The notes beneath the pieces were generated by a model that was not told where the DNA came from, searched no databases, and worked only from the letters and a program-made list of their open reading frames with translations. Positions 20,243 through 42,018 of a DNA stretch of 64,000 nucleotides are shown piece after piece (positions within the stretch are counted from its first letter, which is position 1; every line of letters begins with the position of its first letter). The stretch covers positions 11,014-75,013 of the forward strand of contig JAJCYE010000071.1 in assembly GCA_029263075.1 (NCBI GenBank), written 5' to 3'. A program made the position numbers and the translations under genes. The stretch is from Actinomycetes bacterium. Lineage in GTDB: Bacteria; Actinomycetota; CADDZG01; JAHWKV01.

Positions 20243-21283
20243 CTATGCGAGCTGGGGCTGGCTGACCCGGGCTTGCTTTTCGATCCTCGAGACTCCGATG
20301 AGGTGAAGGATCATCAAGAACACGCTGATCACCAGGTAGATAACCGCGGGAACCTTTACGGAACCTCGCACCCTGACGGCGGCGACCTGCGCCTCGGGGG
20401 GAGCACCAGGCTGCCCGGTCATGTCCAGGGTGGCGATGGATACCTCGGGCTTGACCTTGTCGCCTTCGTTGAAGCCGAAATCGATCAGGTTGCCGGCGTT
20501 GTCGGCGTTGATCGTGATGGTCTGTCCGTCCGATTCAACCTCCATGACCGCCATGCCCGGGGTGATGTCGGTGCCCGGTTCGACCAGGAAGGACTTGACG
20601 GTGGCTTCTTCCTTGCCACCCAGGTCGCCGGCCGAAACGGACCCGGTGGCGACCGCTCTGCCTACCGCGATGACCGAGTCCTTGCCCGAAACCGTCTCCT
20701 GCTTCATACGGATGTCGGTGGCGGTGAACTGAGAGGGGTCGAGGGTGATCTCGCCCTCCACATGCTCGCTTACCGACTCACGGATGCCGGGGATCGGGCT
20801 GGTGGCTTCGCCGACCAGGGCCTCCATCACGGGTTTGGCGTTGTCCAGTTCGGACTGCACTTCGCCCTTGCCGAGGTCGGCGAGTTCGGAGTTCTCGTCC
20901 GGGACGATCCAACCTTCGCCGTCGGGGTAGTCCGCCGTCTCCCAGGTTCCCCATCTGGTTTCTGATTCCTGAAGGTTGGGGGCCAGCGAGGCGGGGTGCC
21001 AGGCGGTGTCGGTTCCTAGGTCGCCCCAGAAGCCGGCTTCGCCCTTCGGACCGAGGCCCGTGGCAACCCAGATGAGCGAAAGAATGGTCATGACTGCAAA
21101 CAGGCAAGCTCCGGTAACGAAGTAACCGAGTTTGGCCCCGAGGATCATCGAGGTCAGCAGCCATACGCTGCCGACGAAGATGACGATGAAGGCAACCGTG
21201 ATAGCGATCCCCTTCACAAAGGTCCCGCTACCACCAGAGGTTGCTGCCTCGGTGGCCAGCAGTGCGATGTCGGAGGTATTCAA
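20243..21283 (-). CDS. hypothetical membrane-anchored acidic protein, last gene of the cytochrome complex operon
   Basis: 346 aa. Two N-terminal TM, a C-terminal TM, and an acidic extracytoplasmic domain. Confidence 0.5.
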   Translation of the reverse strand: MNTSDIALLATEAATSGGSGTFVKGIAITVAFIVIFVGSVWLLTSMILGAKLGYFVTGACLFAVMTILSLIWVATGLGPKGEAGFWGDLGTDTAWHPASLAPNLQESETRWGTWETADYPDGEGWIVPDENSELADLGKGEVQSELDNAKPVMEALVGEATSPIPGIRESVSEHVEGEITLDPSQFTATDIRMKQETVSGKDSVIAVGRAVATGSVSAGDLGGKEEATVKSFLVEPGTDITPGMAVMEVESDGQTITINADNAGNLIDFGFNEGDKVKPEVSIATLDMTGQPGAPPEAQVAAVRVRGSVKVPAVIYLVISVFLMILHLIGVSRIEKQARVSQPQLA

Positions 21284-21309
21284 CGTCGTACTCCCATCTC
21301 CGACTGCAT

Positions 21310-22230
21310 CTACAGGCTCCTCTCGTATTCAACAACCAACTGAATCTGTTCGTCGGTAAGGGTTCCGCCCCAGGTCGGCATGGCGCCGGTACCGGTTCCG
21401 GAAGTTCCGTACGGCTGTCCGGCCTGCGAACCCGCCTTGACGAAGGCCGTGTGGTCTTCGACGTCGGGGAACTGGGCGACCGTAGCTCCGTTCTGCATGG
21501 AGGGACCGGACCCGCCGGCACCGCCAATACCGTGACAGGCGGAGCAGAACTGGCTGAAGATCTGGTCTCCGGTTGCGTCGGCACCGACCTGCGGTGTCTC
21601 CTGGATGCTCTCGATCCAGTTGACGATGTCGTCAAGCTCTTGCACGGTCAGCGGGCCGCCGTAATCGGCACCCCAGGTAGGCATGTCCGTTCCGGGCCGT
21701 CCTCGCTCGATGGTCTCCCGAATGAATTCTTTGGCGTCCTTGAATCCCGCCGGCGGGGTTTCGTACCTGGAGAAGACGGTTTTGAGTTCGGGCACATTGA
21801 TGATCGAGCGAGTGCCGGTGACCGGGTTCAGGAACTCGTTGGTTCCCCCCTCGGCGCCGACTCCGTGGCAGCGGGCGCACTCTTTGCCCTTGGCGTTGTG
21901 TGCACCGGTCTGCTGGTCCGTTTGCAGGGCGTAATACTCGGCGCCCCGCTCCAGCGACTCCTCGGCGAACTCAATTTCGTTGTCCAGCCGGTTCTGTGGC
22001 TCCTGCACCCAGTAGGCGGGCATAAAGAAGGCAAAGAACAGCGTGAGGGCCAAGCCCCACCCGTGGATCTTGGTTAGGCGTGAAGATTCCAGCACGGCAT
22101 CGATGTCCGCCGGCCTCAGGGCCGGGGGTACCTTCGACTTGTTGCCGGACCCCGAACGCGTCCTGAGTACAACCAGAGCGGCGCCGGCGGCAATGCCTCC
22201 TACGAGAACTGCGATAAGTAGCTGACCCAT
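21310..22230 (-). CDS. membrane-anchored diheme cytochrome c (QcrC-like)
   Basis: Two CxxCH motifs (CARCH, CSACH). N-terminal TM. Confidence 0.85.
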   Translation of the reverse strand: MGQLLIAVLVGGIAAGAALVVLRTRSGSGNKSKVPPALRPADIDAVLESSRLTKIHGWGLALTLFFAFFMPAYWVQEPQNRLDNEIEFAEESLERGAEYYALQTDQQTGAHNAKGKECARCHGVGAEGGTNEFLNPVTGTRSIINVPELKTVFSRYETPPAGFKDAKEFIRETIERGRPGTDMPTWGADYGGPLTVQELDDIVNWIESIQETPQVGADATGDQIFSQFCSACHGIGGAGGSGPSMQNGATVAQFPDVEDHTAFVKAGSQAGQPYGTSGTGTGAMPTWGGTLTDEQIQLVVEYERSL

Positions 22231-22267
22231 GATCTCCTGCTAACTTGCTGTGTCGACGGTCAAAGAT

Positions 22268-22969
22268 CTATGCGGTAACGCAGTGAGCCCCTTCAGGCTG
22301 CGGCTGCGTGGTAACGGTTCCCCGGGGTGCCCCGGCGATGATGGTGGCGGTATCGACGATCAACTGCCCGTCGACCACCTCAACCCGGAACTGGTCAAGG
22401 CTCCGAGGAGCCGGCCCGTCCCGGTACTCACCGTTAACCGAGTACTTCGAGCCGTGGCAGGGGCACTCGAACCACTTGGCAGGTGCACACCACGGCACGC
22501 TGCATCCGAGGTGTACACACTTGCGGTAGAGAGCCATGAACCCCGAAACATCCACATTCGCCGCTTTGTAAGCGGGAATGTCGGCTGCTTCTGCCGGGTC
22601 GCCTTCGTAAAGCGTCAGGTAGAAGCGACCGTCCGGGATGAACTTCGGCTCCCTGCTGCCGAGCTCGGCACGAAGATCTTCGGCTGAGCCGACATCGATC
22701 TTGGAACCGAAGCCGCCCCGCAGGCGGGGGTACAAAAAGTCGATGGAGGCCAGGGCGAACTGCCCCAAAAAGGCAAGGGAAGCAAAGCCCACGCCGCGCA
22801 GCAAGAACTTGCGGCGACCGACGTCGGTGACGTCGGAGACCGGAAGTGCCTCCAGCTGCCCGCCGGTGGCCCCGCCGGCCTTGCGGCCTCGGGCACCGAT
22901 GAGTGCAAATGGAATCCAGGCCAACAGTGAGGCCAGGGCAATGATGAGGGCGAACTGTATAGGTGTCAT
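22268..22969 (-). CDS. Rieske [2Fe-2S] iron-sulfur subunit
   Basis: CVHLGC ... CPCHGS boxes. Start ATG 22969-22967 overlaps the upstream stop (ATGA coupling); track ORF runs to 23080. Confidence 0.85.
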   Translation of the reverse strand: MTPIQFALIIALASLLAWIPFALIGARGRKAGGATGGQLEALPVSDVTDVGRRKFLLRGVGFASLAFLGQFALASIDFLYPRLRGGFGSKIDVGSAEDLRAELGSREPKFIPDGRFYLTLYEGDPAEAADIPAYKAANVDVSGFMALYRKCVHLGCSVPWCAPAKWFECPCHGSKYSVNGEYRDGPAPRSLDQFRVEVVDGQLIVDTATIIAGAPRGTVTTQPQPEGAHCVTA

Positions 22970-23799
22970 AGCTCGAAAAATATCCCCGCGTCCCATGGGT
23001 AGACAAAGTTGAATCCAGGGCCTCTCATGATGGACCCTAGCATGCCGAGAATTGCGAACATGAGCATGAAAATCGTCCACATCGAGATGGCAAGTTTCCG
23101 GTCACCGGGCTTGTTAGAGGGGTTCCGGTCGATGTAGGGAGCTGCCATCAAGCCCAGGATCAGCCACTGCGGAATCGAGACTCCGGCGACCTGGGGGTGG
23201 AAGTACCGAAGCAGCTCCTGCAGGCCGAGGAAGTACCACGGTGCTTTGGAGGGGTTCGGAGTGACGTTAATGTTGGCAAGTTCCCTCAACTCGGCGTTGA
23301 CGAAGACGGAAACGATCACCAGTAGAGCGGTGACGCTGAGAACCGCCAGGAACTCGCCGGCCATTAGATGGGGCCAAGTGTTGACCCTATCAATTGGCTC
23401 CTTCTCCACCCGCTGGATGGATTCGGGCTTAACAACAGCCAAAAGACGTTGCATACGCTCCGGAGCGGCGTCTCCCGCTCCTACGCCTGCTCGAGATGCG
23501 GCCCGCCTGCCTCCGGCAGCCGGAGCCTCAGGAGCAGATGCCGCCGCAGGGGGCGCAGATGCCGCCGCCGCAGGGGCAGCCGCAACCGCTGCCGGCTCGG
23601 GAGCCGCTGCAGGTTTTGCCGCCGCGGCTGCAGGTTTAGCTGCTGCCGCTGGAGATGCAGGAGGCGCAGCACCGGCGGCCGCTGCCTTTTTGGCGCGGTG
23701 CCTGGCTGCCTTGGCACGTGCTTCGGCTACCGCCGGAGACGAGCCTTTGGCGTTTTCCTCCGCCAGAGTCTGTTCGAATATTTCGTCAGGAGTGGGCAT
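22966..23799 (-). CDS. cytochrome b C-terminal part / b6f subunit IV-like, with about 110-aa Ala/Pro/Lys-rich N-terminal extension
   Basis: PNPSKAPWYFLGLQELLRYF matches the subunit IV/cyt b C-terminal PEWYFLP region. Low-complexity AAAKPAAAAAKPAAAP N-terminus. Confidence 0.8.
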   Translation of the reverse strand: MPTPDEIFEQTLAEENAKGSSPAVAEARAKAARHRAKKAAAAGAAPPASPAAAAKPAAAAAKPAAAPEPAAVAAAPAAAASAPPAAASAPEAPAAGGRRAASRAGVGAGDAAPERMQRLLAVVKPESIQRVEKEPIDRVNTWPHLMAGEFLAVLSVTALLVIVSVFVNAELRELANINVTPNPSKAPWYFLGLQELLRYFHPQVAGVSIPQWLILGLMAAPYIDRNPSNKPGDRKLAISMWTIFMLMFAILGMLGSIMRGPGFNFVYPWDAGIFFEL

Positions 23800-23833
23800 C
23801 AGTTCGTCCTAGTCCGTCGTGGAATGGTGCCGA

Positions 23834-24625
23834 TCATAGTGGTCCCGAAATTCCGCCGTCCTTGCGGACCCGCCAAAAGTGGACGGCCATAAGCAGAGTG
23901 ATGACGAACGGCAGCGCAAGCACGTGGAGTGTGTACCAGCGAATGAGCGTACCGGCGCCGATCTGCACGCCTCCCAGGAGGATGAACGAGACCTCTTTAC
24001 CAACCAGTGGGGATTCGTAACCCATTTGGGTGCCCACCGTGACCGCCCAGATTGCAAGTTGGTCCCAGGGCAAAAGGTACCCGGTGAAGGCCAGCAGCAA
24101 CGTGATGAGCAGCAAAACGACTCCGATGACCCAGTTGAACTCCCGTGGCGGCTTGTAAGAGCCGGTGTAGAAGACCCGGGACATGTGGAGAAAGACTGTG
24201 ACGACCATCAGGTGGGCGCTCCAGCGGTGCATGTTGCGCACAAGCTGTCCGAACGCCACCGAGGTGGCCAGCCCGACCATGTCCGTGTAAACGACTTCGG
24301 TCGAGGGCCGATAGAAGAACATCAAAAAGATGCCGGTGATGGTCAGGAAAATGAACAAGAAGAAGGAGAGGCCACCCAGGCACAAGGTGTACGAAAGTTT
24401 GATGCCATGGCGCTTCACCTTCACCGGGTGGAGGTGGTAGAGCACGGAGTTCATAATCACGTAAGCACGGTTACGTGGTGAGTCCTGGTATCCCTTGGTC
24501 AGAACCGATCCCGGCCTGAAAATGGAACGCCAGACCTGGCCGCCTCTCAACCCATCCCAAGCACCCTTTACCAGGGCGCCAGGGTGGCGTAGACCACCAA
24601 GCTTTTCTTTCAGATTTGTCGCCAC
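23834..24625 (-). CDS. cytochrome b6-type (N-terminal heme-binding half of split cytochrome b) with CLGG heme-ci-type Cys
   Basis: YHLHP and [10 protein letters not shown] heme-ligand His pairs. SYTLCLGG motif as in b6 and Bacillus QcrB. Confidence 0.85.
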
Positions 24626-24650
24626 CCGCTCTCCTTGTGTCTTAGAAAAC

Positions 24651-25064
24651 CTACGAAGATGCGCCTGAAACCTTGCCCATCGCCCGTGCCGGAGCCTTTT
24701 TGGCCTCCAGCCTGCCGATGGTCAGCGCCCCGGTGGGACACCTCTCAACGCACAGTAGGCACCGGGTGCACGCATCGTCATCGATCACGAACAAAATGTC
24801 ATTGCGCTTCATGTCTCGGGCTATCTCTTCCGAGCCTGCCTCCGCAACTATGTTGGGAGTAAGCATGAAGATGCAGTACCAGGGGCAGATGTCGACGCAG
24901 CCCTCGCAGAGGATACACAGTTCGGGAATAAGCCCGATGTACCGCGGTGGCTTGCGAACAGACTTGAGCCAGGTGGCTTCCACGTCCTGCATCATGTAGT
25001 CCGTGCGAAGGCGCGGCTTTTCTATGTCGTTCTTCTGGCTGAATGGATCCTGCGGGTACGTCAT
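24651..25064 (-). CDS. 2x[4Fe-4S] ferredoxin-domain protein
   Basis: [12 protein letters not shown] and [12 protein letters not shown] motifs. Confidence 0.8.
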
Positions 25065-25071
25065 CGGTCAA

Positions 25072-25416
25072 TCATTTCCCGGGGAGGTATCCCTTGACGC
25101 CCTCGCCGCCCCTGAGACCAAGCCTCCGGCGACGCTTTTCGCCAAGGATGTAGGTCGCAGCGACCGGGATAGCAAAAATAAAGGTCTGGATGCCCATCGT
25201 GATCGCATCGTGGATGCGAACGAGAGTGTAGGGATCCTTGAACTCGATGCCGGCAGTCTTGCTGATGAAGGCTGCGATTGCATCGGAGTTGCCGTCCCAT
25301 GCGTAACGGAACATGGATGGGAGGAAGCCGAGGGTGACGAATAAAATTCCGGTGATGATGGTGGACAAGATGATTGCCCGGACCCAGGTCATCGGTTTTT
25401 CAGCTTGTTTGCTCAA
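25072..25416 (-). CDS. small hypothetical membrane protein (2 TM), first gene of the complex cluster
   Basis: 114 aa, hydrophobic, basic C-terminus. Confidence 0.45.
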   Translation of the reverse strand: MSKQAEKPMTWVRAIILSTIITGILFVTLGFLPSMFRYAWDGNSDAIAAFISKTAGIEFKDPYTLVRIHDAITMGIQTFIFAIPVAATYILGEKRRRRLGLRGGEGVKGYLPGK

Positions 25417-25529: not shown

Positions 25530-25679
25530 CTACTTCGCCGGGCTTGATTTTTCAGACGCCTTGAGCTCTTGAATCCGATGTTCAAGCGCACGCTGGCGCC
25601 GGGAGACCGAAAAAAGGAACACTGTTATGCCTGCAAACACCAGCAAAAAGGCCAGTCCGAGAAATCCAAGGCCGTCCAT
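25530..25679 (-). CDS. ccmD: CcmD-like small single-TM protein (49 aa)
   Basis: MDGLGFLGLAFLLVFAGITVFLFSVSRRQRALEHRIQELKASEKSSPAK. Size, topology and position just after ccmC fit CcmD. Not in the ORF track because it is under 60 aa. Confidence 0.5.
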   Translation of the reverse strand: MDGLGFLGLAFLLVFAGITVFLFSVSRRQRALEHRIQELKASEKSSPAK

Positions 25680-25721
25680 CAGGCGCGCCGGTTACGGCAA
25701 ATTGAGTTCACGGGCAACAGA

Positions 25722-26435
25722 CTAACCCGTGATGTGGGGGGTTATGACCGCGTTCTCCAGGAAAGTCGCTTCCAACTCCATGACCTCGTCCTCCAACTTG
25801 AGCACCCTGACCCCCAGTGCGAGCAGGACCAGGTAGAGCAGCGTGAAGACGGCGAACATCCCGAGCAGCACTATCAACATCTCCTGAGGTAATGCGGCCG
25901 AGGCTTCCGGGCGCACCACCGTTCGTGACGGGTGCTGGCCCCGCCACCAATCGACTGAGAAGTGCACCAGGGGTACGACCATAAATCCCGCGATGCCTAT
26001 AACCGCGCCGATGCGGGCGCCGCGATTTTCGTCGCCGGCGTTGGCGCGGAACGCCAGGTAGCCCAGATAAATCAAAAAAAGCACCAGGGTTAACGTCAAC
26101 CGGGGGTCCCAGGCCCAAAACGCGCCCCAAATCGGCTTCCCCCACATTGCCCCGGTGATGAGGGTGGTTGCGGTGAACAGCACGCCAACCTTGGCCGAAG
26201 CGTGGGCGACCCAGTCCCAGCGGGACTCCGACGTCTTCAGGTAGGCGACCGAACAGACCAGGACCACCCCGAAGGCCAGGTATGCCACCCAGGCGGAGGG
26301 AGCGTGGAGGTAAACGATTCTCTGCGACACGCCCTGGAAGGCCTCGGTGGGCACCCAGAAAAAGATCGCGACGAGACCGGCCATAAAACCTATGGCGAGA
26401 ACAGTTTGGGTGAGCTGGAGTGGGTCTTTTTTCAT
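25722..26435 (-). CDS. ccmC: heme exporter protein C
   Basis: WWD domain WGKPIWGAFWAWDPR. Confidence 0.85.
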   Translation of the reverse strand: MKKDPLQLTQTVLAIGFMAGLVAIFFWVPTEAFQGVSQRIVYLHAPSAWVAYLAFGVVLVCSVAYLKTSESRWDWVAHASAKVGVLFTATTLITGAMWGKPIWGAFWAWDPRLTLTLVLFLIYLGYLAFRANAGDENRGARIGAVIGIAGFMVVPLVHFSVDWWRGQHPSRTVVRPEASAALPQEMLIVLLGMFAVFTLLYLVLLALGVRVLKLEDEVMELEATFLENAVITPHITG

Positions 26436-27136
26436 TCCTCGATCACAAACTCGAAAGTAACGGCTCCGAGGGTCAAAAAAACAACGTCGAAGACTGCCAT
26501 GAGGATAAACCAGCGCGCTTCACTACCAAACCGATTTTCAATAAGCAACGTCGAGGTCAGCTTGGATGCGCCCAGGATCACCGGAAGGCTGAGGGGGAAC
26601 GCAAGGAGAGGGAGCATGAGCGACCGGGCCTCCGCATACTGGGTCGCCGCACCGAACAGGGTCCCCACCGCGGCCATTCCCAAGCTGGCAACCAGCATCA
26701 CGGGCAGGATGCCGGGCAGCAGGGACCCCGGAGCGATGTTCGCAAAGAGCATAAATAGCGGGATGGCCACCAGTTCAGTAGCCAGCAGGAACGCCAGGTT
26801 GCCTATCAACTTGCCTGCGTAAAGGGCCGCCGGATCCACCGGCGCAAGAAGCAAGCCATCCCCGGCCGACCCCTCACGGTCGGCGGCGGCGCTCCTGCCG
26901 AACCCGATCACCGCCGCGAAGAAAATGCTGGTCCACAAGAGCAGACCGGTTATCTCCCGGGCGGAGATCGCCCCGGCCTTCGGCAGGGGGACCGGCGCCC
27001 TGAGTGCTCCCGGAGGCAGGGCGAAGGTCAACAGGAAAACCAGGGTGAGGGCAAATACAACCATCACCGGGGCGATCTGTTTGGCCCGCGACTCGCCGCG
27101 AAGGTCCTTGGCCGCCAAGGCCAGGATGGTTCTCAT
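26432..27136 (-). CDS. ccmB: heme exporter permease CcmB
   Basis: 234-aa 6-TM ABC-2-type permease. 4-nt overlaps with ccmA and ccmC. Confidence 0.75.
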   Translation of the reverse strand: MRTILALAAKDLRGESRAKQIAPVMVVFALTLVFLLTFALPPGALRAPVPLPKAGAISAREITGLLLWTSIFFAAVIGFGRSAAADREGSAGDGLLLAPVDPAALYAGKLIGNLAFLLATELVAIPLFMLFANIAPGSLLPGILPVMLVASLGMAAVGTLFGAATQYAEARSLMLPLLAFPLSLPVILGASKLTSTLLIENRFGSEARWFILMAVFDVVFLTLGAVTFEFVIEE

Positions 27137-27735
27137 TCGGCCCGGCCACCGGTCAGGTGAATGAGCCGATCTGCCACCTGTTCAGCTCTCGGCCGGTCGT
27201 GGGTGGAAAGCAGTACCGTTCGACCGTTTTGGGCAATGAGTCCTGGAAGGCGCTCCGAACTGGTTTCGTCCAGACCTGAAAAGGGTTCGTCGAGCAGCAG
27301 ATACCGGGGTTCGTGGAGCAGGGTCCTGGCCAGACCGAGCCGTTGGGACTCTCCGCGGGAGAAGGTGCGCACCAGCGAGGCGCCCTTGGCGCCCAATCCC
27401 ACATCTTCCAGCAACTTGGGAACCCGGGTCCGGTCAACCCGGTAGAGGTCGGCGTAGAAGTTGAGGTTTTCGGTGGCCGACAGGTAGCGGTAGAGAAACG
27501 GCTCGTGGCCCAGATAGCCGATGGCTGATTTGCACTCCGCCGGGGGCGACCCCTCCAGCGTCACCGATCCGGAGGTGGGTTTGACGAGGCCGGCGACGAG
27601 TTTAAGCAGGGTGGACTTGCCAGATCCGTTGGCGCCCAGGATGGCCACCGTGGTGCCGTCGGCAATCTGAAGGCTCAGGTTGGTGATTGCCCGGACGCGG
27701 CCGAATGTTTTCGTCAGTCCGTCGAGGACGATCAA
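27133..27735 (-). CDS. ccmA: heme exporter ATP-binding protein CcmA
   Basis: Walker A GANGSGKST, signature LSRGESQRLGLA, Walker B LLLDEP. Confidence 0.85.
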   Translation of the reverse strand: MIVLDGLTKTFGRVRAITNLSLQIADGTTVAILGANGSGKSTLLKLVAGLVKPTSGSVTLEGSPPAECKSAIGYLGHEPFLYRYLSATENLNFYADLYRVDRTRVPKLLEDVGLGAKGASLVRTFSRGESQRLGLARTLLHEPRYLLLDEPFSGLDETSSERLPGLIAQNGRTVLLSTHDRPRAEQVADRLIHLTGGRAE

Positions 27736-28931
27736 CTCTTTGGCGGTTCGCTCAGTCCGGCAAGCAGACTGGCGCGCTGGGACCTATATGTTGGTTCGTC
27801 CAGTTTGCCGGCCTCGAACTGTTCGTCGAGTTCGGCTATCCGGTCGATGAGTTCCTGCCTGGGGGAGGGCTCAACGGTTTTGGCCTCAGGGACCTGCGGT
27901 TTTTGTTTGGCCGCCCGGCGGCGGCGCATACGGAGGGCGGCCGTCACAAAAAGAGCCGCCAGGACCGCGGCCACTGCCCCGAACCCGATCCAGACTCCGT
28001 CCGACGAGCCGTCGTCGGGGAACCCGATGTCCGCCTCGATCACCGATCCCGGGTTCAATGCCCCGCTGCGGTACCGGTTGTAGGACTCTCCGCCCAGGGT
28101 TTTGTTCTCCTGGAACTCAAATCCCGGCGCCGCGGTAAGTGTGAGCCGGTCACCGACGAGCAGATCGGCGTGGTCGGTTGGGTTATAGACCTCACGGCGA
28201 AGTTGCCAGCCGGTCCGGGGAACCTTGACCTTAAACAGATAGGCGATCGAACTTTCTCCGGGGGGCAGGGCGGAAGTTGTCACCAATCTCCCCTCGCCGG
28301 AGGTGGCCAGGCCCGCGGCGTTGACGGGGTCGGCGGGTGCCAGGTCGTACGCGGACTCGGGGATGGGCAGCTTGAGGACCTGGCGAGCCGGTGCCTCGGC
28401 GGGAGGGCTGGCCTGCGGGTCGGGAGCATCCTGATCTGAGTCGGCGCCGACGAAAGTGCGGTCAGATTCGTTGCGGAACCTCATAAGCTGCAGCACTTCC
28501 AGGACGTTGCCCTGTCCGTCGACCGTGCTTTGTAGAACCGTAATCGAGTCGGATACGACCGTAACTGCGGAGGCTTCGGTGGTGGTTTCGAAGATCTTGA
28601 GTTCGATCCCGGTGGTCTCGCCCGGCTCCAGTGACCGGCTGTAGGCAACACCTTTGTAGAACAAGCCCACCAGATGCCCCTTTTCAGGATCGGCGTCGAA
28701 GGTGAAGGCGCCCCCGGCCCCGACCGGCGAAAACGACGGTTGACCCTGGGGCACGCCGTCGGAGTCGTTTTCCAGGACGGTCACCCGCAGCGCTCCGGGC
28801 AATTCGGTGCCTGCCGTCCCCATAACCACGTTCCCCGTTGCGGCGGTGGGGGTGGCCGCCCGGGCCGGGGCCGGACCGAACATGGCCGCAAGGACCATTG
28901 CGACGGCGGAGAACGTCCGTGAAATCCTCAA
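27732..28931 (-). CDS. secreted Cys-free protein with C-terminal TM anchor, embedded in the ccm operon (unknown function)
   Basis: Signal peptide MRISRTFSAVAMVLAAMFGPAPARA. About 300-aa extracytoplasmic domain, TM (VWIGFGAVAAVLAALFVTAAL), basic/acidic cytoplasmic tail. Confidence 0.5.
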   Translation of the reverse strand: MRISRTFSAVAMVLAAMFGPAPARAATPTAATGNVVMGTAGTELPGALRVTVLENDSDGVPQGQPSFSPVGAGGAFTFDADPEKGHLVGLFYKGVAYSRSLEPGETTGIELKIFETTTEASAVTVVSDSITVLQSTVDGQGNVLEVLQLMRFRNESDRTFVGADSDQDAPDPQASPPAEAPARQVLKLPIPESAYDLAPADPVNAAGLATSGEGRLVTTSALPPGESSIAYLFKVKVPRTGWQLRREVYNPTDHADLLVGDRLTLTAAPGFEFQENKTLGGESYNRYRSGALNPGSVIEADIGFPDDGSSDGVWIGFGAVAAVLAALFVTAALRMRRRRAAKQKPQVPEAKTVEPSPRQELIDRIAELDEQFEAGKLDEPTYRSQRASLLAGLSEPPKS

Positions 28932-29272
28932 TTTTTGCGAAGGCGGCCCCGCGCCGCCCGGATCTCCTCCTCAAGGGTCGCCAGGTCGGTCTGCTGGGTG
29001 TCCTCGCCCTCCAGTTCGTGGATGATTCCCAAGGCCTCGGCCTTGCTCTGCCCGCGCAGTTGCTCGTAGTCCTGATCGCCCATCTTTCCCATCTCGTGGT
29101 CCATCTCAAGGTCGACGATCGATCGGTAGACGCTCTGCTTGGCTTCAAGCAGGTCCTCGGTCCGCCGGTCTTCGTCCGGACCCCCGAGGGCTCGCCGGCT
29201 CCCCAGGAGGGGTTTCACGATCCACCCGACCGCGGCGAGTACGACGGCAGCTACCACGACCTGTTCGATCAC
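28928..29272 (-). CDS. small membrane-anchored acidic protein in the ccm operon (unknown)
   Basis: 114 aa, N-terminal TM, then a charged helical region. Confidence 0.4.
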   Translation of the reverse strand: MIEQVVVAAVVLAAVGWIVKPLLGSRRALGGPDEDRRTEDLLEAKQSVYRSIVDLEMDHEMGKMGDQDYEQLRGQSKAEALGIIHELEGEDTQQTDLATLEEEIRAARGRLRKN

Positions 29273-29741
29273 TCTGACCCCCTGCGGAAGTTGCCGAAGT
29301 CTTTGTCGAACACGCGCTCCTCCTCGGGAGTTAGTTGCGAGGTTGCTTCATCGATCGGGGTCCGGGCTTGACCGGGTGGCTGGCGGCGCCGGAGGACGAG
29401 CATGATCACAAACAGGCCCGCCAGGACCGCCAGAGGCGGCGCTACCCAGGCCAGGGTTCCATCCGGCCGCGCGAGTGCCACCTCGCCGAAGTTGTCGACT
29501 ATCCAACGGTCGATCTGTTCGTTGGTGTCGCCCCGGAGGACCATCTGGTTGATCTCGCCCCTCAGCCGGCTGGCCTGGTCCGACGGGCACTCCTCCAGGG
29601 TAAGCCCGGGACAGAAGGGTGACATCATGCGAGCGGCGACCTCGTCGGTGGTGGGGACCGCGCCGGGATCGGGGCCCGCGGTTATGACCATGCCGAAAGC
29701 CAAACCGCCGATGACAGCTAAGGCCGCGAGGGGCCAGAGCC

Positions 29742-29745
<4 letters not shown>
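29269..29745 (-). CDS. ccmH: CcmH/CycL-like cytochrome c biogenesis protein with non-canonical Cys spacing
   Basis: FCPGLTLEECPSDQASRLRGEINQMVLRGDTNEQIDRWIVDNFG parallels the CcmH LRCPKCQNQS...EIVDYMVARYG region. The Cys pair is C-x7-C instead of CxxC. C-terminal TM. Confidence 0.6.
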
Positions 29746-31742
<1,997 letters not shown>

Positions 31743-31758
31743 TCCTCCTGCGGTGAAG

Positions 31759-32148
31759 CTAGCCTTCTGAGGCCAGCTTGGCTTCCATCTTCGAGGGGCA
31801 TTTGACCAGGACGCTGGAGGCGGAGAAAGCTTCTGCCCCCATGGCGCCTTCGGCCACGACCTCAACGTCGCCGGCGAAAGTGTCGGGCAGGGCGTCCTCG
31901 GTGGTCACTGCGACCTCAGCGGATCCGTCGGACACCATGAAGTTGGTGGTGGTCCCGGCCAGTTCGATGGAACCTGGGACCACGATCCCGGCAACCCGGA
32001 CCGTGCGGTTTTCTTCAAAACTGCCGGAGTTCAGCTCGGAGGGCGTCCGGTAGTAGGCCGTGGTGCCCGAGAGCGACCAGACGATCAACCCGACGATTGA
32101 TATAACGATCACTCCCGCGGCGAGGCTGAAGCGTTTGGTAGCGGACAT
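31759..32148 (-). CDS. ccmE: heme chaperone CcmE, variant with Cys at the heme-attachment position
   Basis: N-terminal TM and OB-fold region align with CcmE (VAGIVVPGSIE...). The canonical LAKHDENY is replaced by LVKCPSKM. Confidence 0.75.
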   Translation of the reverse strand: MSATKRFSLAAGVIVISIVGLIVWSLSGTTAYYRTPSELNSGSFEENRTVRVAGIVVPGSIELAGTTTNFMVSDGSAEVAVTTEDALPDTFAGDVEVVAEGAMGAEAFSASSVLVKCPSKMEAKLASEG

Positions 32149-32263: not shown

Positions 32264-33586
32264 TTGGCGGATTACGACGCAATTGTCGTCGGGGCCGGTC
32301 CCGGGGGCTCGGCCGCCGCTTACTGGCTGGCAGCAGCCGGGCTCAAGGTCGTCCTTTTGGAGAAAAAGGCGCTGGGCCGCGACAAGGTGTGCGGCGACGG
32401 GCTGACTCCGCGGGCGACCAAGGCCCTGGTCGAGATGGGGGTGCGCCCCGCGACGGAGTCCTACCACCGGATCCGAGGCCTGAGGGTCCTGGGCGCCGAT
32501 CGGGAAATGGAACTGGACTGGCCCTCTCTCAGCAACTTCCCCGCCAACGGACTGGTTGCCGCCCGGGCGGTCCTGGATGCGGACATCACCCGCCGGGCCG
32601 TGGAAGCCGGGGTGGAACTCCGCGACATGACCGAGGCGGTGGAACCGGTGCGGGAGGGAACCACCGTGGTCGGCGTCAAGTGGGTCCGCAAGGAGCCCGC
32701 TGAAGGAGGCGGGGTCATCAAGGCCGACGAAGGGGAGATCCTGGCCCCCTTCACCATCGTCGCCGACGGCGCATCCTCGTCCTTCGGCCGGGCGCTCGGC
32801 ATCAAAATGGACCCTAGCTACCCGCTGGGCCTGGGGATTCGCGCCTACTACCAGACCGATCGCCACGACGACGACTTCATCGAGTCGTGGCTCGAGCTAC
32901 GCAAGGACGACCTTTTATTGCCGGGCTACGGCTGGCTCTTCCCGCTGGGCGACGGAACGATGAACGTGGGCGTCGGCCTGCTCCAGACCTCCAAGCGCGA
33001 CCTCAATGTGAACCTCAGCCGGTTGCAGCACGACTTCATCGACTGCCTGCCCAAGTCTTACGGCATCACCCACGAAAGCGCGACCGGTCCCTATAAGTCG
33101 GCCCGGCTGCCGCTCGGGGGGAGTATCCGCAAACCCTACGGCGACGGCTTCCTTTGTATTGGCGATGCCGCCGGCATGATCAACCCGTTCAACGGGGAGG
33201 GCATCGACTATGCGCTGGAAACCGGCAAGCTTGCCGCCGGCATGGTCAGCGCTGCGCTCTCCCGGGGGGACTCGGCCGAACTGCATGACTACCAGACGGC
33301 CCTGCGGGACATCTACGGCGGCTACTACCGGTTGGGCCGGCTGTTTTTGAAGATGATCAGCAAACCGGAACTGTTCCGGTTGATGTGCGGGATCGGGATG
33401 CGCTCGGAGACGGTCATGGCCTTTGCACTCCAGGTGCTGGCCAACCTGGGAGAGGACAACGGCGGGAAGATGGCCGACCGGGCGTTCCGGGGTCTGGTGC
33501 GGGCCGCCGAGAAGGGCCTGGACGAGTACAGGGACCCGGAAATCCCAACCCCCAGCGGCGCAAAGGTGGGCGCAGGAGTCTCCTGA
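32264..33586 (+). CDS. geranylgeranyl reductase family FAD-dependent oxidoreductase (MenJ-like menaquinone/isoprenoid reductase)
   Basis: YDAIVVGAGPGGSAAAYWLA FAD-binding N-terminus. GDAAG motif (CIGDAAGMINP). Confidence 0.75.
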   Translation: MADYDAIVVGAGPGGSAAAYWLAAAGLKVVLLEKKALGRDKVCGDGLTPRATKALVEMGVRPATESYHRIRGLRVLGADREMELDWPSLSNFPANGLVAARAVLDADITRRAVEAGVELRDMTEAVEPVREGTTVVGVKWVRKEPAEGGGVIKADEGEILAPFTIVADGASSSFGRALGIKMDPSYPLGLGIRAYYQTDRHDDDFIESWLELRKDDLLLPGYGWLFPLGDGTMNVGVGLLQTSKRDLNVNLSRLQHDFIDCLPKSYGITHESATGPYKSARLPLGGSIRKPYGDGFLCIGDAAGMINPFNGEGIDYALETGKLAAGMVSAALSRGDSAELHDYQTALRDIYGGYYRLGRLFLKMISKPELFRLMCGIGMRSETVMAFALQVLANLGEDNGGKMADRAFRGLVRAAEKGLDEYRDPEIPTPSGAKVGAGVS

Positions 33587-34873: not shown

Positions 34874-35242
34874 GTGCCAGACGGTTATTTTGGTTCTTAC
34901 CTGACCCTGGCCATCTACTCTTTGGCCATGATCGGCCTGGTAGGCGGGACCCTCGGCCTCAACCGCCTGGTTTCGCCGAAGGTTCCCGGCAAAGAAAAGA
35001 TGACCACCTACGAAAGTGGCGTCGACCCCATCGGCAGTGGCCAGAGCCAGACCACCATTCGTTATTACATGTTCGCCTTACTCTTCGTCATCTTCGACGT
35101 CGAGGCGGTGTTCCTGTTCCCGTGGGCAGTGGTATTCGAGGAGATCGGCGTCTTCGCCTTTGTCGAGATGATGATCTTCGTCGCCATCCTCGCTCTCGGC
35201 CTGCTTTACGCCTGGCGTAAGAAGGTGCTGGACTGGATTTGA
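34874..35242 (+). CDS. nuoA: NADH-quinone oxidoreductase subunit A
   Basis: 122 aa, 3 TM. Conserved FDVEAVFLFPWA. Confidence 0.85.
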   Translation: MPDGYFGSYLTLAIYSLAMIGLVGGTLGLNRLVSPKVPGKEKMTTYESGVDPIGSGQSQTTIRYYMFALLFVIFDVEAVFLFPWAVVFEEIGVFAFVEMMIFVAILALGLLYAWRKKVLDWI

Positions 35243-35297
35243 GAGTTTTTAGCTCGGCAGGCCACAACTGCGTCACCCCGATTCCCGCAGAGGAGCT

Positions 35298-35846
35298 TTG
35301 ATGGCCCAAGATCCCGACGTTGAGAAGGTCAAACTCCCAAAGGGCGTCAGCTTCCTGCTGAACTGGGGACGCAAGTACTCCCTGTGGATGTTCCAGTTCG
35401 GCCTCGCATGTTGCTCCATAGAATTCATCGCCTCGGCGATGCCCAAACATGACATCATGCGGCTGGGCGTCATCCCGTTCCCGGCCTCACCCCGCCAGGC
35501 GGACCTCATGGTGGTTGCCGGCACCGTGACCGACAAGATGGCCCCGGCGATCAAGCGGGTCTACGAGCAGATGGCCGAACCGAAGTACGTGATCTCTATG
35601 GGTTCGTGCGCCAACTGCGGCGGACCCTACTGGGACTCCTACTGCGTTACCAAGGGCGTCGATCAGATTCTCCCGGTCGATGTCTACGTACCGGGCTGCC
35701 CGCCCAGGCCCGAGGGTCTGTTGGGCGGCATCATCCGTCTGCAGAACATGATTCAGGGCGAAAACATCAAAGAGAAATGGCAAGGTAGTGACCACACAGG
35801 AAAGATTCCGCAGATCATTGGAACGGGTCGAGCCGGAGGAATTTAG
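35298..35846 (+). CDS. nuoB: NADH-quinone oxidoreductase subunit B
   Basis: CCSIEF ... [11 protein letters not shown]2 cluster motifs. Confidence 0.9.
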
Positions 35847-36336
35847 CCGGCGGGTCTCCGCCAAGATCGGGGACCTGGCCACCGATGTCGAGGTTAAATA
35901 CGGGCACGTTTGGGCGAAGGTTGATCCTGCGCGCATTGTTGACGTCGTGTCCGCCCTCAAGACCGCTCCGGACCTGGCGTGCGGCTACCTGACCTTCCTG
36001 GCCGGCGTCGACTGGCAGGAGGAGGGCTTTGAGGTCGTTGTGACTGTCTACTCGGTAACCAACGAGAACACGGTGATCCTGAGTGTTTCCCTGGGGGCCG
36101 ACGCCACTATGCCCACCCTTACCGGAGTTTTCCGCAGCGCCGAGTGGCATGAACGTGAAGCGCACGAGATGTTCGGCATCAACTTCGATGGCCACCCGAA
36201 CCCGGAGAAGTTGTACCTGCCGGAAGACTTCGAGGGTCACCCTCTGCGCAAAGATTTCCGGCTGGCCAGCAGGGTCTTCAAGCCCTGGCCCGGCGCCAAG
36301 GATCCGTCAGAGGCAGCCGGTGGAGGACGCGCATGA
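35788..36336 (+). CDS. nuoC: NADH-quinone oxidoreductase subunit C (start uncertain)
   Basis: [22 protein letters not shown] motif. Track ORF overlaps nuoB by 59 nt. Confidence 0.8.
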
Positions 36337-36396
36337 GCACCTGTGACAAGGCTGCACGACTTTGTAAAACAGCAGCCGGTGGAGGACGCGCATGAG
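36313..36396 (+). repeat. 59-nt direct duplication of the nuoC-stop/nuoD-start junction (gcagccggtggaggacgcgcatgag x2)
   Basis: Identical 25-mer at 36313-36337 and 36372-36396. Each contains RBS GGAGGA and an ATGA overlap. Creates a 20-codon micro-ORF ([20 protein letters not shown]) at 36333..36395. Confidence 0.8.
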
Positions 36397-38562: not shown

Positions 38563-38570
38563 GAGACGAT

Positions 38571-39164: not shown

Positions 39165-39165
39165 C

Positions 39166-39651: not shown

Positions 39652-39654
39652 GGA

Positions 39655-41999: not shown

Positions 42000-42018
42000 T
42001 TAGACAGACGGAGGGGCT

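What the first reader, a model, noticed from the sequence alone, without database searches (positions are those of the whole stretch)
20243..25416. b6-type split cytochrome b / Rieske complex with heme-ci Cys, ferredoxin subunit and diheme cytochrome c, chained to the ccm operon
Gene order on the minus strand: small membrane protein, 2x[4Fe-4S] ferredoxin, cytochrome b6 (with SYTLCLGG, the motif that covalently binds heme ci in b6f and Bacillus bc), subunit IV-like protein with a 110-aa Ala/Pro/Lys low-complexity N-terminal extension, Rieske (ATGA-coupled), diheme cytochrome c, acidic membrane protein. Typical actinobacterial QcrCAB has an unsplit long cytochrome b, so this Firmicutes/heliobacterial-style b6c complex with a ferredoxin-like extra subunit is out of place. 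It is immediately downstream of, and co-directional with, the Ccm genes that would mature its c-type heme and possibly heme ci.
Basis: partly seen in the sequence, partly recalled or inferred. Interest (0 to 1): 0.55.

Follow-up and report, generated by a model that had tools for sequence, protein, structure and literature searches.

The report
Acidimicrobiia-type b6c respiratory complex operon
This is a real seven-gene operon for a cytochrome b6-type respiratory complex III with an attached ferredoxin-like gene, but it is the normal form in this branch of Actinomycetota, not an out-of-place acquisition; only the role of the ferredoxin-like protein remains open.

Summary
Window 25416-20243 (minus strand) holds seven tightly packed genes: small membrane protein, 2x[4Fe-4S] protein, cytochrome b6 with the heme-ci cysteine, subunit IV with a long Ala/Pro-rich N-terminal extension, Rieske protein (ATGA-coupled), membrane-anchored diheme cytochrome c, and an acidic membrane protein.

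The interpretation "out of place" is not supported. The same Fd-b6-SUIV-Rieske-cytochrome c order, with the same motifs, occurs in essentially every informative one of 80 related genome loci (Acidimicrobiia and unclassified Actinomycetota), out of at least 594 species with a close cytochrome b6 relative. Published KEGG tables for one Acidimicrobiia order show the b6 type in 81% of genomes and canonical qcrB in 5%.

The cytochrome b belongs to the already catalogued "APWY clade" (Kao and Hunte 2014, which includes Ilumatobacter), not the Firmicutes or heliobacterial clade.

Adjacency to ccm is found only in the two closest relatives. Ccm acts on the wrong membrane side to attach heme ci.

What remains uncharacterised is the strictly co-conserved, lineage-restricted ferredoxin-like protein, a plausible cytoplasmic-side redox subunit.

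The parts
25072..25416 (-). Small membrane protein (114 aa, 2 TM, basic C-terminus); first gene of the operon
   Evidence: ORF and no Pfam or NCBIfam hit. It aligns with the 140-260 aa, 2-4 TM protein encoded just upstream of the Fd gene in eight related loci sampled (A1; invariant W11, P33, D70). There is a GAGGA about 10 nt before the TTG start. tblastn at 1e-5 finds it only in L001 and L002.
24651..25064 (-). 2x[4Fe-4S] ferredoxin-like protein (137 aa), with no signal peptide or TM helix; predicted cytoplasmic
   Evidence: Fer4 families match and there are two CxxCxxCxxxCP motifs. It lies 7 nt after the previous gene and 25 nt before cytochrome b6. It is present upstream of cytochrome b6 in 78/80 loci and in every locus that has subunit IV. 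45 columns are invariant across 39 homologues, including the non-cluster N-terminal KP..R.DY...W (A2). The family is narrow: 292 word-index hits, those with a source name almost all labelled Actinomycetota, and only 11 clusters at E<=1e-30 among 1.84 billion representatives. It is not NuoI, because the nuo operon has its own nuoI.
23834..24625 (-). Cytochrome b6 (263 aa): four-helix, two b-hemes, Cys82 in the heme ci (cn) position, and about 45 extra N-terminal residues
   Evidence: PF00033 E 9e-44. NCBIfam scores are ExtP 293 bits (cut-off 290), PRK03735 cytochrome b6 208, and actinobacterial QcrB 114 against cut-off 500. Aligned to 1vf5_A at E 1e-45, with Cys35, the His ligands and Arg207 conserved.
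22966..23799 (-). Subunit IV (277 aa): about 115-aa Ala/Pro-rich cytoplasmic N-terminal extension plus a three-helix PetD-like core with Qo motif APWY
   Evidence: PF00032 E 9e-10; ExtQ 38.8 bits (cut-off 150); PetD 20.5 bits. It carries KAPWYFLGLQELL. The extension and its N-terminal motif are conserved in relatives. The median cytb6-SUIV gap is 18 nt when the long ORF is used. An automatic gene call truncated it to 132 aa and called a spurious opposite-strand ORF.
22268..22969 (-). Rieske [2Fe-2S] protein (233 aa), with an extra N-terminal TM helix plus a Tat-like GRRKFLL anchor; start overlaps the subunit IV stop (ATGA)
   Evidence: Start overlap shown. PF00355; PetC-type models 68-70 bits, actinobacterial QcrA 29 bits against cut-off 275. 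Motifs are CVHLGC and CPCHGSKY. The best solved relative is 9rk3 (Kuenenia Kustd1480), followed by cyanobacterial PetC.
21310..22230 (-). Membrane-anchored diheme class I cytochrome c (306 aa, pI 4.7)
   Evidence: Two CxxCH motifs at residues 118 and 229, each followed by an MPTWG motif. PF13442 and PF00034 match. Actinobacterial QcrC scores 21 bits against cut-off 200. Two CxxCH motifs are found in 62/69 relatives.
20243..21283 (-). Acidic membrane protein (346 aa, pI 4.4, 2 N-terminal + 1 C-terminal TM) with a lipoyl-like barrel domain lacking the lipoyl lysine; last gene of the operon
   Evidence: Weak PF00364 hit (E 6e-6); the sequence reads VESDGQ where lipoyl domains have E(T/S)DK. tblastn finds it in 24/80 loci. 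A 300-400 aa, 2-3 TM acidic protein occupies the same position in most of the 12 loci inspected.
25530..32148 (-). Context only: System I cytochrome c maturation cluster (ccmE, F, H, 114-aa and 399-aa unknowns, ccmA, B, C, 49-aa CcmD-like ORF) upstream on the same strand
   Evidence: Pfam CcmE, CcmF_C, CcmH, ABC_tran, CcmB and Cytochrom_C_asm. The 49-aa ORF 25679-25530 was read and called as a gene. The cluster is adjacent to the bc operon only in L001 and L002.

Best explanation
The region is the lineage-typical complex III of an uncultured Actinomycetota bacterium allied to Acidimicrobiia. It is a menaquinol:cytochrome c oxidoreductase of the split-cytochrome-b (b6c) type and belongs to the "APWY clade" of Rieske/cytochrome b complexes.

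Inferred mechanism (by homology to b6f and bc complexes):
- Menaquinol is oxidised at the Qo site, which is formed by cytochrome b6 and subunit IV (motif APWY).
- One electron goes through the Rieske cluster to the membrane-anchored diheme cytochrome c, and from there to a terminal oxidase.
- The other electron crosses the membrane through hemes bL and bH, and probably a covalently bound heme ci on Cys82, to reduce quinone at the cytoplasmic side. This builds proton-motive force.

Three further conserved operon products are most likely accessory subunits: the small membrane protein, the acidic membrane protein and the 2x[4Fe-4S] protein.

The iron-sulfur protein is predicted to sit on the cytoplasmic face near heme bH/ci and the extended N-termini of cytochrome b6 and subunit IV. 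Whether it carries electrons into or out of the low-potential chain is not shown.

The neighbouring ccm genes would mature the diheme cytochrome c but not heme ci.
For: Shown:
- Seven co-directional genes with gaps of 37 nt or less and one ATGA overlap.
- Domain assignments for the five core proteins.
- Residue-level alignment of cytochrome b6 to solved b6f structures, with the heme ligands and Cys35 equivalent conserved.
- Rieske cluster motifs, with closest solved relatives from b6f and Kuenenia Rieske/cytochrome b complexes.
- The APWY motif.
- Operon order and motifs conserved in 70-78 of 80 loci from Ilumatobacteraceae, Microthrixaceae, Iamiaceae, Aquihabitans, Salinilacustrithrix and unclassified Actinomycetota.
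- The b6-type cytochrome b is the common one, and canonical qcrCAB nearly absent, in an Acidimicrobiia order.
- No other cytochrome b or Rieske gene turned up among the roughly 57 window ORFs screened against Pfam.
- The clade was described previously and includes Ilumatobacter.
- For the Fd: presence in every locus that has subunit IV, very high conservation outside the cluster ligands, and a narrow distribution.

Inferred: the Q-cycle mechanism, heme ci occupancy, and the position and role of the Fd.
Against: - No member of the APWY clade has been characterised biochemically, so even the direction of operation is an inference.
- Proline at the second Qo position removes the usual carboxylate.
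- The Rieske protein carries the Ser/Tyr signature associated with high potential, although these organisms are expected to use menaquinone. That combination has been argued to indicate unusual energetics in Kuenenia.
- Heme ci binding is proven only for b6f, Bacillus and heliobacteria.
- Physical association of the Fd with the complex rests on gene adjacency alone. My AlphaFold2 model of the Fd was too poor to use (pLDDT 55), and no multimer prediction was possible.
- I could not search the window organism's whole genome for a second complex III.
Confidence: 0.8

Rival explanations
1. Ferredoxin-coupled Rieske/cytochrome b complex. The 2x[4Fe-4S] protein would be a redox-active cytoplasmic-side subunit wired to heme ci/bH. 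The enzyme would then do one of two things. It could take electrons from the low-potential pool into the quinone pool (a ferredoxin:quinone reductase route, as proposed for cyclic flow through b6f). Or it could use quinol bifurcation at Qo to push one electron uphill onto the Fe-S clusters, as proposed for the Kuenenia complexes that carry NAD(P) oxidoreductase modules. This extends the best explanation rather than excluding it.
For: - The Fd gene is strictly co-conserved and tightly spaced with cytochrome b6.
- Its non-ligand residues are strongly conserved, as expected for a bound subunit.
- The heme-ci cysteine is conserved.
- The extended cytoplasmic N-termini of b6 and subunit IV are conserved.
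- The Rieske protein is closest to Kustd1480 (+335 mV with menaquinone) and carries the Ser/Tyr high-potential signature.
- Cytochrome b of subfamily G is known to co-occur with cytoplasmic Fe-S oxidoreductase subunits.
- UBA5794 Acidimicrobiia run a ferredoxin-dependent 2-oxoglutarate oxidoreductase instead of ODH, so they need a ferredoxin sink.
Against: - There is no flavin or NAD(P) domain in the operon, so no obvious final acceptor or donor.
- No structural or biochemical evidence of binding exists.
- The Fd model was unusable.
- No natural Fd-b6 fusion was found; the long hits are frameshifted read-throughs.
- Predicting redox potential from sequence is crude.
Confidence: 0.3
2. One reading: a Firmicutes/heliobacterial-style b6c complex acquired by horizontal transfer and foreign to its actinobacterial host, functionally chained to the ccm operon.
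For: - It differs from the QcrCAB of Actinomycetes.
- Kao and Hunte consider APWY-clade genes to have spread by horizontal transfer between phyla in the deep past.
- ccm is adjacent and co-directional here.
Against: - Base composition is uniform across the region (GC 0.57-0.65).
- The operon is conserved across families of Acidimicrobiia and allied MAGs at 68-84% cytochrome b6 identity.
- The canonical qcr genes are the rare ones in this class.
- The motif and gene order are not those of Firmicutes.
- ccm is adjacent in only 2 of 80 loci.
Confidence: 0.04
3. The Fd and the upstream small membrane protein are not subunits. They would be dedicated assembly factors, for example for attaching heme ci on the cytoplasmic side, taking the place of the CCB pathway of chloroplasts.
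For: - Heme ci needs a cytoplasmic-side attachment pathway distinct from Ccm.
- Among the seven operon proteins screened against Pfam, none matched a CCB family.
- The two genes always come first in the operon.
Against: - The known CCB proteins are described as transmembrane proteins (PMC2712960 abstract); that none of them is an Fe-S protein is from my own knowledge.
- The small membrane protein matches no CCB family or any other family.
- Assembly factors are rarely this conserved or this tightly coupled to structural genes.
Confidence: 0.08
4. An ExtOPQ-type module for selenite/tellurite or extracellular metal reduction, as NCBI's pipeline names the cytochrome b in related MAGs.
For: The cytochrome b scores 293 bits against NF040969 ExtP (cut-off 290). 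Relatives carry that name in NCBI records.
Against: - ExtQ scores 38.8 against a cut-off of 150, and no ExtO model was hit.
- None of the defining Geobacter neighbours is present: porin ExtI, rhodanese ExtH, and the multiheme cytochromes ExtKL, M, N, S.
- The partner here is a diheme class I cytochrome c.
Confidence: 0.02

Closest known systems
"APWY clade" of cytochrome b (Kao and Hunte 2014, PMC4122944), equivalent in my judgement to subfamily G of Dibrova et al. 2013/2017 (PMC5600118) and groups A1/A2 of Baymann et al. 2012 (PMC3509893); this equivalence was not tested
   Same: Split cytochrome b, CxGG heme-ci motif, and Qo motif APWY. The published clade contains an Acidimicrobidae member, Ilumatobacter coccineum YM16-304. 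Loci labelled Ilumatobacter in my set have the same operon.
   Different: The published clade mostly shows WCMGG; here the motif is LCLGG. In the text I could read, those papers do not describe the ferredoxin-like gene, the conserved flanking membrane proteins, or the subunit IV extension.
Kuenenia stuttgartiensis Rieske/cytochrome b complexes Kustd1480-1485 and Kuste4569-4574 (PMC12954380)
   Same: Split b6-type cytochrome b with heme cN, and menaquinone with a Ser-containing Rieske. The best solved relative of the window Rieske is Kustd1480 (9rk3, E 5e-16). There is a cytoplasmic-side Fe-S module encoded in the operon.
   Different: The Kuenenia module is a large FAD/NAD(P) oxidoreductase with about four Fe-S clusters, and its partners are multiheme cytochromes. 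Here there is only a 137-aa 2x[4Fe-4S] protein and a diheme class I cytochrome c.
Cytochrome b6f (cyanobacteria/chloroplasts)
   Same: Closest solved structures for cytochrome b6 (E 1e-45). Four plus three helices, Cys35, the His ligands, Arg207, and a PetC-like Rieske with CPCHGS.Y.
   Different: No cytochrome f and none of the small Pet subunits were recognised. The Qo motif is APWY, not PEWY. Rieske has two TM helices. b6 and subunit IV have long N-terminal extensions. The ferredoxin-like gene is extra.
Firmicutes QcrABC / heliobacterial PetCBDX
   Same: Non-photosynthetic or type-I-RC-linked b6c complexes using menaquinol, with a split cytochrome b, heme ci and a diheme or fused cytochrome c.
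   Different: The usual Firmicutes gene order is Rieske first (my own knowledge); here Rieske follows subunit IV. There is no subunit IV-cytochrome c fusion. The Qo motif is not PDWY/PEWY. NCBIfam cytochrome b6 (PRK03735) scores 208 against a cut-off of 325.
Actinobacterial QcrCAB (Mycobacterium/Corynebacterium supercomplex III)
   Same: Same physiological slot: menaquinol oxidation, a diheme cytochrome c that can pass electrons on without a soluble carrier, and a multi-helix Rieske.
   Different: QcrB is unsplit with about 540 aa and has no heme-ci cysteine. All three NCBIfam actinobacterial models are far below cut-off: 114/500, 29/275 and 21/200.

Membership tests
b6-type (split) Rieske/cytochrome b complex | Cytochrome b split after helix D into a four-helix b6 and a three-helix subunit IV, encoded by adjacent genes | tested here: met
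   PF00033 on the 263-aa protein and PF00032 on the next gene. The alignment to 1vf5_A ends at the b6 C-terminus GISGPL. Subunit IV aligns to PetD residues 31-145.
b6-type (split) Rieske/cytochrome b complex | Four histidine ligands for hemes bL and bH | tested here: met
   HRWSAH...H and H...LP...H align with the 1vf5_A ligands.
b6-type (split) Rieske/cytochrome b complex | CxGG motif with the cysteine that binds heme ci | tested here: met
   Cys82 in TLCLGG aligns with Cys35. The motif is conserved in 76/80 relatives.
b6-type (split) Rieske/cytochrome b complex | Heme ci actually bound covalently | not testable with these tools
   Needs heme staining, mass spectrometry or EPR. It has been shown only for b6f, Bacillus and heliobacteria.
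b6-type (split) Rieske/cytochrome b complex | Rieske subunit with CxH and CxxH cluster ligands plus disulfide cysteines, encoded in the operon | tested here: met
   CVHLGC and CPCHGS are present. PF00355 and PetC models match. The motifs are found in 69/70 relatives.
APWY clade (Kao and Hunte 2014) | Qo motif APWY in subunit IV | tested here: met
   KAPWYFLGLQELL in the window; APWY in 75/76 relatives.
APWY clade (Kao and Hunte 2014) | Clusters phylogenetically with the clade's reference sequences | tested here: inconclusive
   No tree with reference sequences was built. Indirect support: the best NCBIfam model is Geobacter ExtP (293 bits, against 208 for cytochrome b6); whether Geobacter ExtP itself lies in the APWY clade was not tested. 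Ilumatobacter, named in the clade, has this operon.
Geobacter ExtHIJKLMNOPQS cluster (selenite/tellurite) | ExtP, ExtQ and ExtO equivalogs together with porin ExtI, rhodanese ExtH and multiheme ExtKL/M/N/S | tested here: not met
   ExtP scores 293 against cut-off 290, only marginally above. ExtQ scores 38.8 against 150. No ExtO hit, and no multiheme, porin or rhodanese neighbours.
Actinobacterial QcrCAB | Unsplit QcrB, QcrA and QcrC reaching the NCBIfam cut-offs | tested here: not met
   114/500, 29/275 and 21/200 bits.
Firmicutes/heliobacterial b6c | Rieske-first gene order, PDWY/PEWY Qo motif, and (in Bacillus) subunit IV fused to cytochrome c | tested here: not met
   The order is b6-SUIV-Rieske-cytochrome c, the motif is APWY, and cytochrome c is a separate diheme protein. 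PRK03735 is below cut-off.
Rieske/cytochrome b complexes with a cytoplasmic Fe-S oxidoreductase module (Kuenenia type) | Operon-encoded cytoplasmic subunit with Fe-S clusters plus FAD/NAD(P) domains | tested here: not met
   Only a 137-aa 2x[4Fe-4S] protein is present; no flavin or nucleotide-binding domain is in the operon. The resemblance is functional and is not membership.

The most novel reading that the evidence does not exclude
The 137-aa 2x[4Fe-4S] protein is a stoichiometric cytoplasmic-side subunit that exchanges electrons with heme ci/bH. This would make it a natural, genetically hard-wired ferredoxin module on a heme-ci-type cytochrome b6 complex in aerobic, non-photosynthetic bacteria with cultured representatives. 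It would give a simple bacterial system for testing two things: whether heme ci is an entry point for ferredoxin electrons (the long-debated ferredoxin:quinone reductase route of cyclic electron flow), or whether quinol bifurcation can drive reduction of a low-potential Fe-S acceptor.
Probability: 0.27. Interest if true: 0.65.

Novelty: new variant of a known kind. Interest (0 to 1): 0.33.

Why it matters
As a genome oddity it does not matter. This is simply how Acidimicrobiia and their relatives build complex III, and the cytochrome b type was catalogued in 2014.

It has three more modest points of value.

1. It shows that a large, environmentally abundant actinobacterial class respires through an uncharacterised b6c-type enzyme, not the mycobacterial QcrCAB that is usually assumed for the phylum.
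2. The enzyme consistently comes with a lineage-restricted ferredoxin-like protein, two conserved membrane proteins and long cytoplasmic extensions that I could not find described. This makes it a tractable candidate for testing what heme ci and cytoplasmic-side Fe-S modules do in Rieske/cytochrome b complexes.
3. Current automatic names for these genes are misleading: "ExtP selenite/tellurite reduction", "NuoI", and subunit IV truncated to 132 aa.

Tried and rejected
- **Fd structure.** AlphaFold2 of the Fd with a 39-sequence alignment gave pLDDT 55 and pTM 0.36. This is too poor for a fold search, so none was run.
- **Natural fusions of the Fd.** I looked for fusions to cytochrome b6 or to the upstream membrane protein. 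Long ORFs in my loci are upstream over-extensions in the wrong frame. Long database hits (P0258, P0269, P0271, P0284) are frameshifted read-throughs. There is no Rosetta-stone evidence.
- **Complex I Q-module idea.** I considered that the Fd plus the downstream nuoABCD of other Acidimicrobiia might form a complex I Q-module docked on the b6c complex, because L079 has ABC transporters after nuoD. This is rejected. In L045, L004 and L047 nuoD is followed by nuoE, and in the first two then by nuoF; similarly sized ORFs follow in the other loci listed. The window's nuo operon has its own nuoI.
- **Upstream membrane protein.** I tested whether it is a known family (CCB or other). No Pfam or NCBIfam hit was found in the window protein or in four relatives.
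- **Dibrova et al. 2013.** I could not obtain it, and the Kao and Hunte supplements are not held. I therefore cannot say whether their operon figures already show the ferredoxin gene.
- **Promoter/terminator scan.** It gave nothing informative in the ccmD-to-operon gap.

Full report
**1. What is there**

The window has about 62% G+C with no compositional break around the finding. On the minus strand from 25416 to 20243 lie seven ORFs with high third-position G+C. The gaps between them are 7, 25, 34, -4, 37 and 26 nt. Profile searches give the following.

- **25416-25072:** a 114-aa two-helix membrane protein with no family.
- **25064-24651:** a 137-aa protein with two complete CxxCxxCxxxCP motifs (Fer4, E 2e-12). 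It has no signal peptide and no transmembrane helix.
- **24625-23834:** a 263-aa cytochrome b6 (PF00033, E 9e-44).
- **23799-22966:** a 277-aa subunit IV (PF00032, E 9e-10).
- **Rieske protein:** identified by PF00355.
- **22230-21310:** a 306-aa protein with two CxxCH motifs.
- **21283-20243:** a 346-aa acidic protein (pI 4.4) with three predicted helices and a weak lipoyl-like domain that lacks the lipoyl lysine.

The subunit IV stop and the Rieske start overlap as ATGA at 22969-22966. The Rieske gene is therefore 22969-22268 (233 aa). It has an N-terminal helix followed by a Tat-like GRRKFLL anchor.

Aligned to the solved Mastigocladus cytochrome b6 (1vf5_A, E 1e-45), Cys82 of TLCLGG falls on Cys35, the residue that binds heme ci. 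The four heme histidines and the C-terminal R..GISGPL are also conserved.

**2. The subunit IV extension is real**

The first 115 residues of subunit IV include 51 Ala and 16 Pro. One public gene call skipped this stretch, truncating the protein to 132 aa and calling a spurious opposite-strand ORF.

In the twelve relatives aligned the long ORF is kept. The extension starts with a conserved helix-like motif: AEE.AKGSSPAVAEARAKA in the window's group, and EIPEHLRKRAEEARAKA in most Acidimicrobiia. It ends in a conserved QRLL.VVK..SIQ.V...P.D.V..WPHL just before the first helix. With the long ORF the median b6-to-subunit IV gap is 18 nt.

By homology with PetD this N-terminus is cytoplasmic. Cytochrome b6 also has about 45 extra, conserved N-terminal residues.

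**3. Is it unusual for its lineage? No**

The cytochrome b6 has thousands of close homologues, all 68-98% identical among the 120 listed. Where they carry a source name it is Actinomycetota or Acidimicrobiia.

A scan of one genome per species found at least 594 species with a relative. The best 80 loci come from Ilumatobacteraceae, Microthrixaceae, Iamiaceae, Aquihabitans, Salinilacustrithrix and unclassified Actinomycetota MAGs. tblastn with the window's proteins shows the following counts.

| Gene, in the same order and orientation | Loci of 80 |
|---|---|
| Fd | 78 |
| Subunit IV | 76 |
| Rieske | 70 |
| Diheme cytochrome c | 71 |

The shortfalls are contig ends plus two loci (L003, L018) that hold an orphan cytochrome b6 paralogue. 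Motifs are conserved as follows.

| Motif | Count |
|---|---|
| TLCLGG | 73/80 |
| APWY | 75/76 |
| Two Fe-S motifs | 77/78 |
| Both Rieske motifs | 69/70 |
| Two CxxCH | 62/69 |

The small upstream membrane protein is alignable with a longer 2-4-helix protein at the same position in eight other loci sampled. An acidic membrane protein of 300-400 aa follows the cytochrome c gene in most of the 12 loci inspected. In 57 of the loci the nuoABCD genes come next; in the three loci checked by Pfam nuoD is followed by nuoE, and in two of them then by nuoF.

Published KEGG tables for the Acidimicrobiia order UBA5794 list the b6-type cytochrome b (K03887) in 81% of genomes. Canonical qcrB, qcrA and qcrC are in 5%, 4% and 1%.

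**4. Which kind of complex**

The NCBIfam scores rank the cytochrome b as follows.

| Model | Bits | Cut-off |
|---|---|---|
| Geobacter ExtP | 293 | 290 |
| Cytochrome b6 (PRK03735) | 208 | 325 |
| Actinobacterial QcrB | 114 | 500 |

Subunit IV carries APWY where b6f has PEWY and Firmicutes have PDWY. Kao and Hunte (2014) defined an "APWY clade": split cytochrome b with the CxGG motif, found in Deltaproteobacteria, Chloroflexi, Nitrospirales, Planctomycetes, two deep Firmicutes and a few Actinobacteria. They explicitly include Ilumatobacter coccineum of the Acidimicrobidae. None of these complexes has been characterised, and the authors suspect reverse operation.

In my judgement the same group corresponds to subfamily G of Dibrova et al., whose members often sit next to cytoplasmic Fe-S oxidoreductase genes. 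This equivalence was not tested.

The window's complex is therefore not Firmicutes- or heliobacterial-style. It is also not a Geobacter Ext cluster, whose defining neighbours are a porin, a rhodanese and multiheme cytochromes. The "ExtP selenite/tellurite" name that NCBI's pipeline gives to relatives rests on a score 3 bits above the cut-off.

The Rieske protein's closest solved relative is Kustd1480 of Kuenenia (9rk3), followed by cyanobacterial PetC. It carries CPCHGSKY, the Ser/Tyr pair associated with high potential. Kustd1480 titrates at +335 mV although Kuenenia uses menaquinone.

**5. The ccm link**

Upstream on the same strand are ccmE, ccmF, ccmH, two unassigned ORFs, ccmA, ccmB, ccmC and a 49-aa CcmD-like ORF. 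A 113-nt gap follows before the operon's TTG start, which has a GAGGA about 10 nt upstream.

This adjacency is shared only by the two closest relatives, L001 and L002. It is a local arrangement and not a feature of the system.

Ccm would mature the diheme cytochrome c. Heme ci is attached on the opposite (stromal/cytoplasmic) face by a separate pathway in chloroplasts (PMC2712960). The suggestion that Ccm might mature heme ci is therefore topologically unlikely. This last step is an inference from established knowledge.

**6. How it most likely works**

By homology, this is the organism's menaquinol:cytochrome c oxidoreductase operating a Q cycle. The high-potential branch runs Rieske to diheme cytochrome c to a terminal oxidase. 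The low-potential branch runs bL to bH to (heme ci) to the Qi site.

- **Shown:** gene content, ligands, motifs and conservation.
- **Inferred:** activity, direction, heme ci occupancy, the quinone type and the oxidase partner.

I put 0.8 on "this is the lineage's ordinary complex III".

**7. The open part**

The ferredoxin-like protein has four properties.

- It is present in every locus that has subunit IV and absent from the two orphan b6 loci.
- It is conserved at 45 invariant positions of 137, including a non-cluster N-terminal segment.
- It belongs to a narrow family. A word-index search found 292 hits, of which the 120 listed are 54-95% identical and, where a source names them, almost all Actinomycetota. 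A profile search of 1.84 billion representatives found only 11 clusters at E<=1e-30.
- It is distinct from NuoI, which the nuo operon encodes separately.

Its nearest solved relatives are polyferredoxin domains and NuoI, matched only over the cluster core. It is most simply read as a cytoplasmic-face subunit.

Whether it feeds electrons into, or takes electrons out of, the heme bH/ci end is untested. The Kuenenia proposals and models are the closest precedent. Ferredoxin-dependent 2-oxoglutarate oxidation in UBA5794 Acidimicrobiia gives a physiological motive. I give this reading about 0.3.

An assembly-factor role for the Fd and the small membrane protein is possible but less likely (0.08).

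**8. Novelty and score**

The cytochrome b type and its presence in Acidimicrobiia are already known. The operon as a whole appears undescribed in the literature I could search: the Fd, two conserved membrane proteins, the extended subunit IV and the two-helix Rieske. It is a variant of a known kind.

Interest is modest (0.33). The finding as framed (an out-of-place complex) is explained away. The enzyme itself is an uncharacterised, widespread respiratory complex and a reasonable target for testing the function of heme ci.

Noticed in passing
window 34874-45032 (+): The nuo operon runs nuoA, B, C, D, H, I, J, K, L, M, N, with the nuoD stop overlapping the nuoH start (37549-37552). nuoK, M and N are assigned by position and length only. 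There is no nuoE, F or G, so this is an 11-subunit complex-I-like enzyme lacking the NADH-oxidising module. Its electron donor is unknown. Its subunits are only 26-54% identical to the nuoABCD that follows the b6c operon in other Acidimicrobiia; there nuoD is followed by nuoE, and by nuoF where checked.
   Followed up: partly
window 31759-32148 (-): CcmE reads VLVKCPSKM at the heme-binding site. It has Cys in place of the usual His, as in the CxxxY variant of archaea and Desulfovibrio (PMC9084895), and Met in place of the Tyr. A System I (Ccm) pathway in an actinobacterial lineage is itself unusual, since the phylum normally uses System II (my own knowledge, not tested).
   Followed up: partly
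window 27732-29272 (-): Two ORFs inside the ccm cluster (399 aa and 114 aa) have no Pfam hit. Both carry a CcmI-like acidic helix (ELDEQFEAGKLDEPTYRSQ and DLEMDHEMGKMGDQDYEQL). The 399-aa protein has a signal peptide and a C-terminal helix. They may be divergent CcmI-like apocytochrome chaperones.
   Followed up: no
window 25530-25679 (-): A 49-aa single-helix ORF (MDGLGFLGLAFLLVFAGITVFLF...) lies between ccmC and the bc operon. By position and size it is probably CcmD. It was called as a gene in a public assembly.
   Followed up: partly
L003 10001-10735 and L018 (Ilumatobacteraceae MAGs): These loci hold an orphan cytochrome b6 paralogue, 73-74% identical to the window's; the L003 copy, which was inspected, keeps the TLCLGG motif. 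The gene stands alone with no ferredoxin, subunit IV, Rieske or cytochrome c next to it. It is followed by a small membrane protein, a sigma-factor-like gene and an ABC transporter.
   Followed up: partly
L004, L019, L045, L047, L077 and about 50 further loci, roughly 4.3-5 kb downstream of cytochrome b6: In most Acidimicrobiia the b6c operon is followed directly, on the same strand, by nuoA-B-C-D. nuoE follows nuoD in L045, L004 and L047, and nuoF in the first two. The two form one respiratory gene block. L079 is an exception, with ABC transporters after nuoD.
   Followed up: yes
window 23368-23892 (+) and public annotations of relatives: There are three annotation artefacts. A spurious 174-aa ORF is called opposite the Ala/Pro-rich part of subunit IV, truncating subunit IV to 132 aa. 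The cytochrome b6 of relatives is named "selenite/tellurite reduction operon b-type cytochrome ExtP" on a score 3 bits over the cut-off. The ferredoxin-like protein is named "NADH-quinone oxidoreductase subunit I".
   Followed up: yes
window 4501-6078 (+): A 525-aa protein matches both the HTTM domain (E 7e-83) and the lumenal domain of vitamin K-dependent gamma-carboxylase (E 2e-46). This is a full-length VKGC-like protein in a bacterium expected to make menaquinone.
   Followed up: no
window 32264-33586 (+): An FAD-dependent geranylgeranyl-reductase-like protein lies between the ccm cluster and the nuo operon. It is possibly a menaquinone side-chain reductase (MenJ-like), which would fit the partly saturated menaquinones reported for Acidimicrobiia (my own knowledge).
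   Followed up: no
window 20243-21283 (-): The last operon gene has a periplasmic lipoyl/biotinyl-like barrel domain (PF00364, E 6e-6). It reads VESDGQ where lipoyl domains have E(T/S)DK, so it cannot be lipoylated. Its function is unknown.
   Followed up: partly
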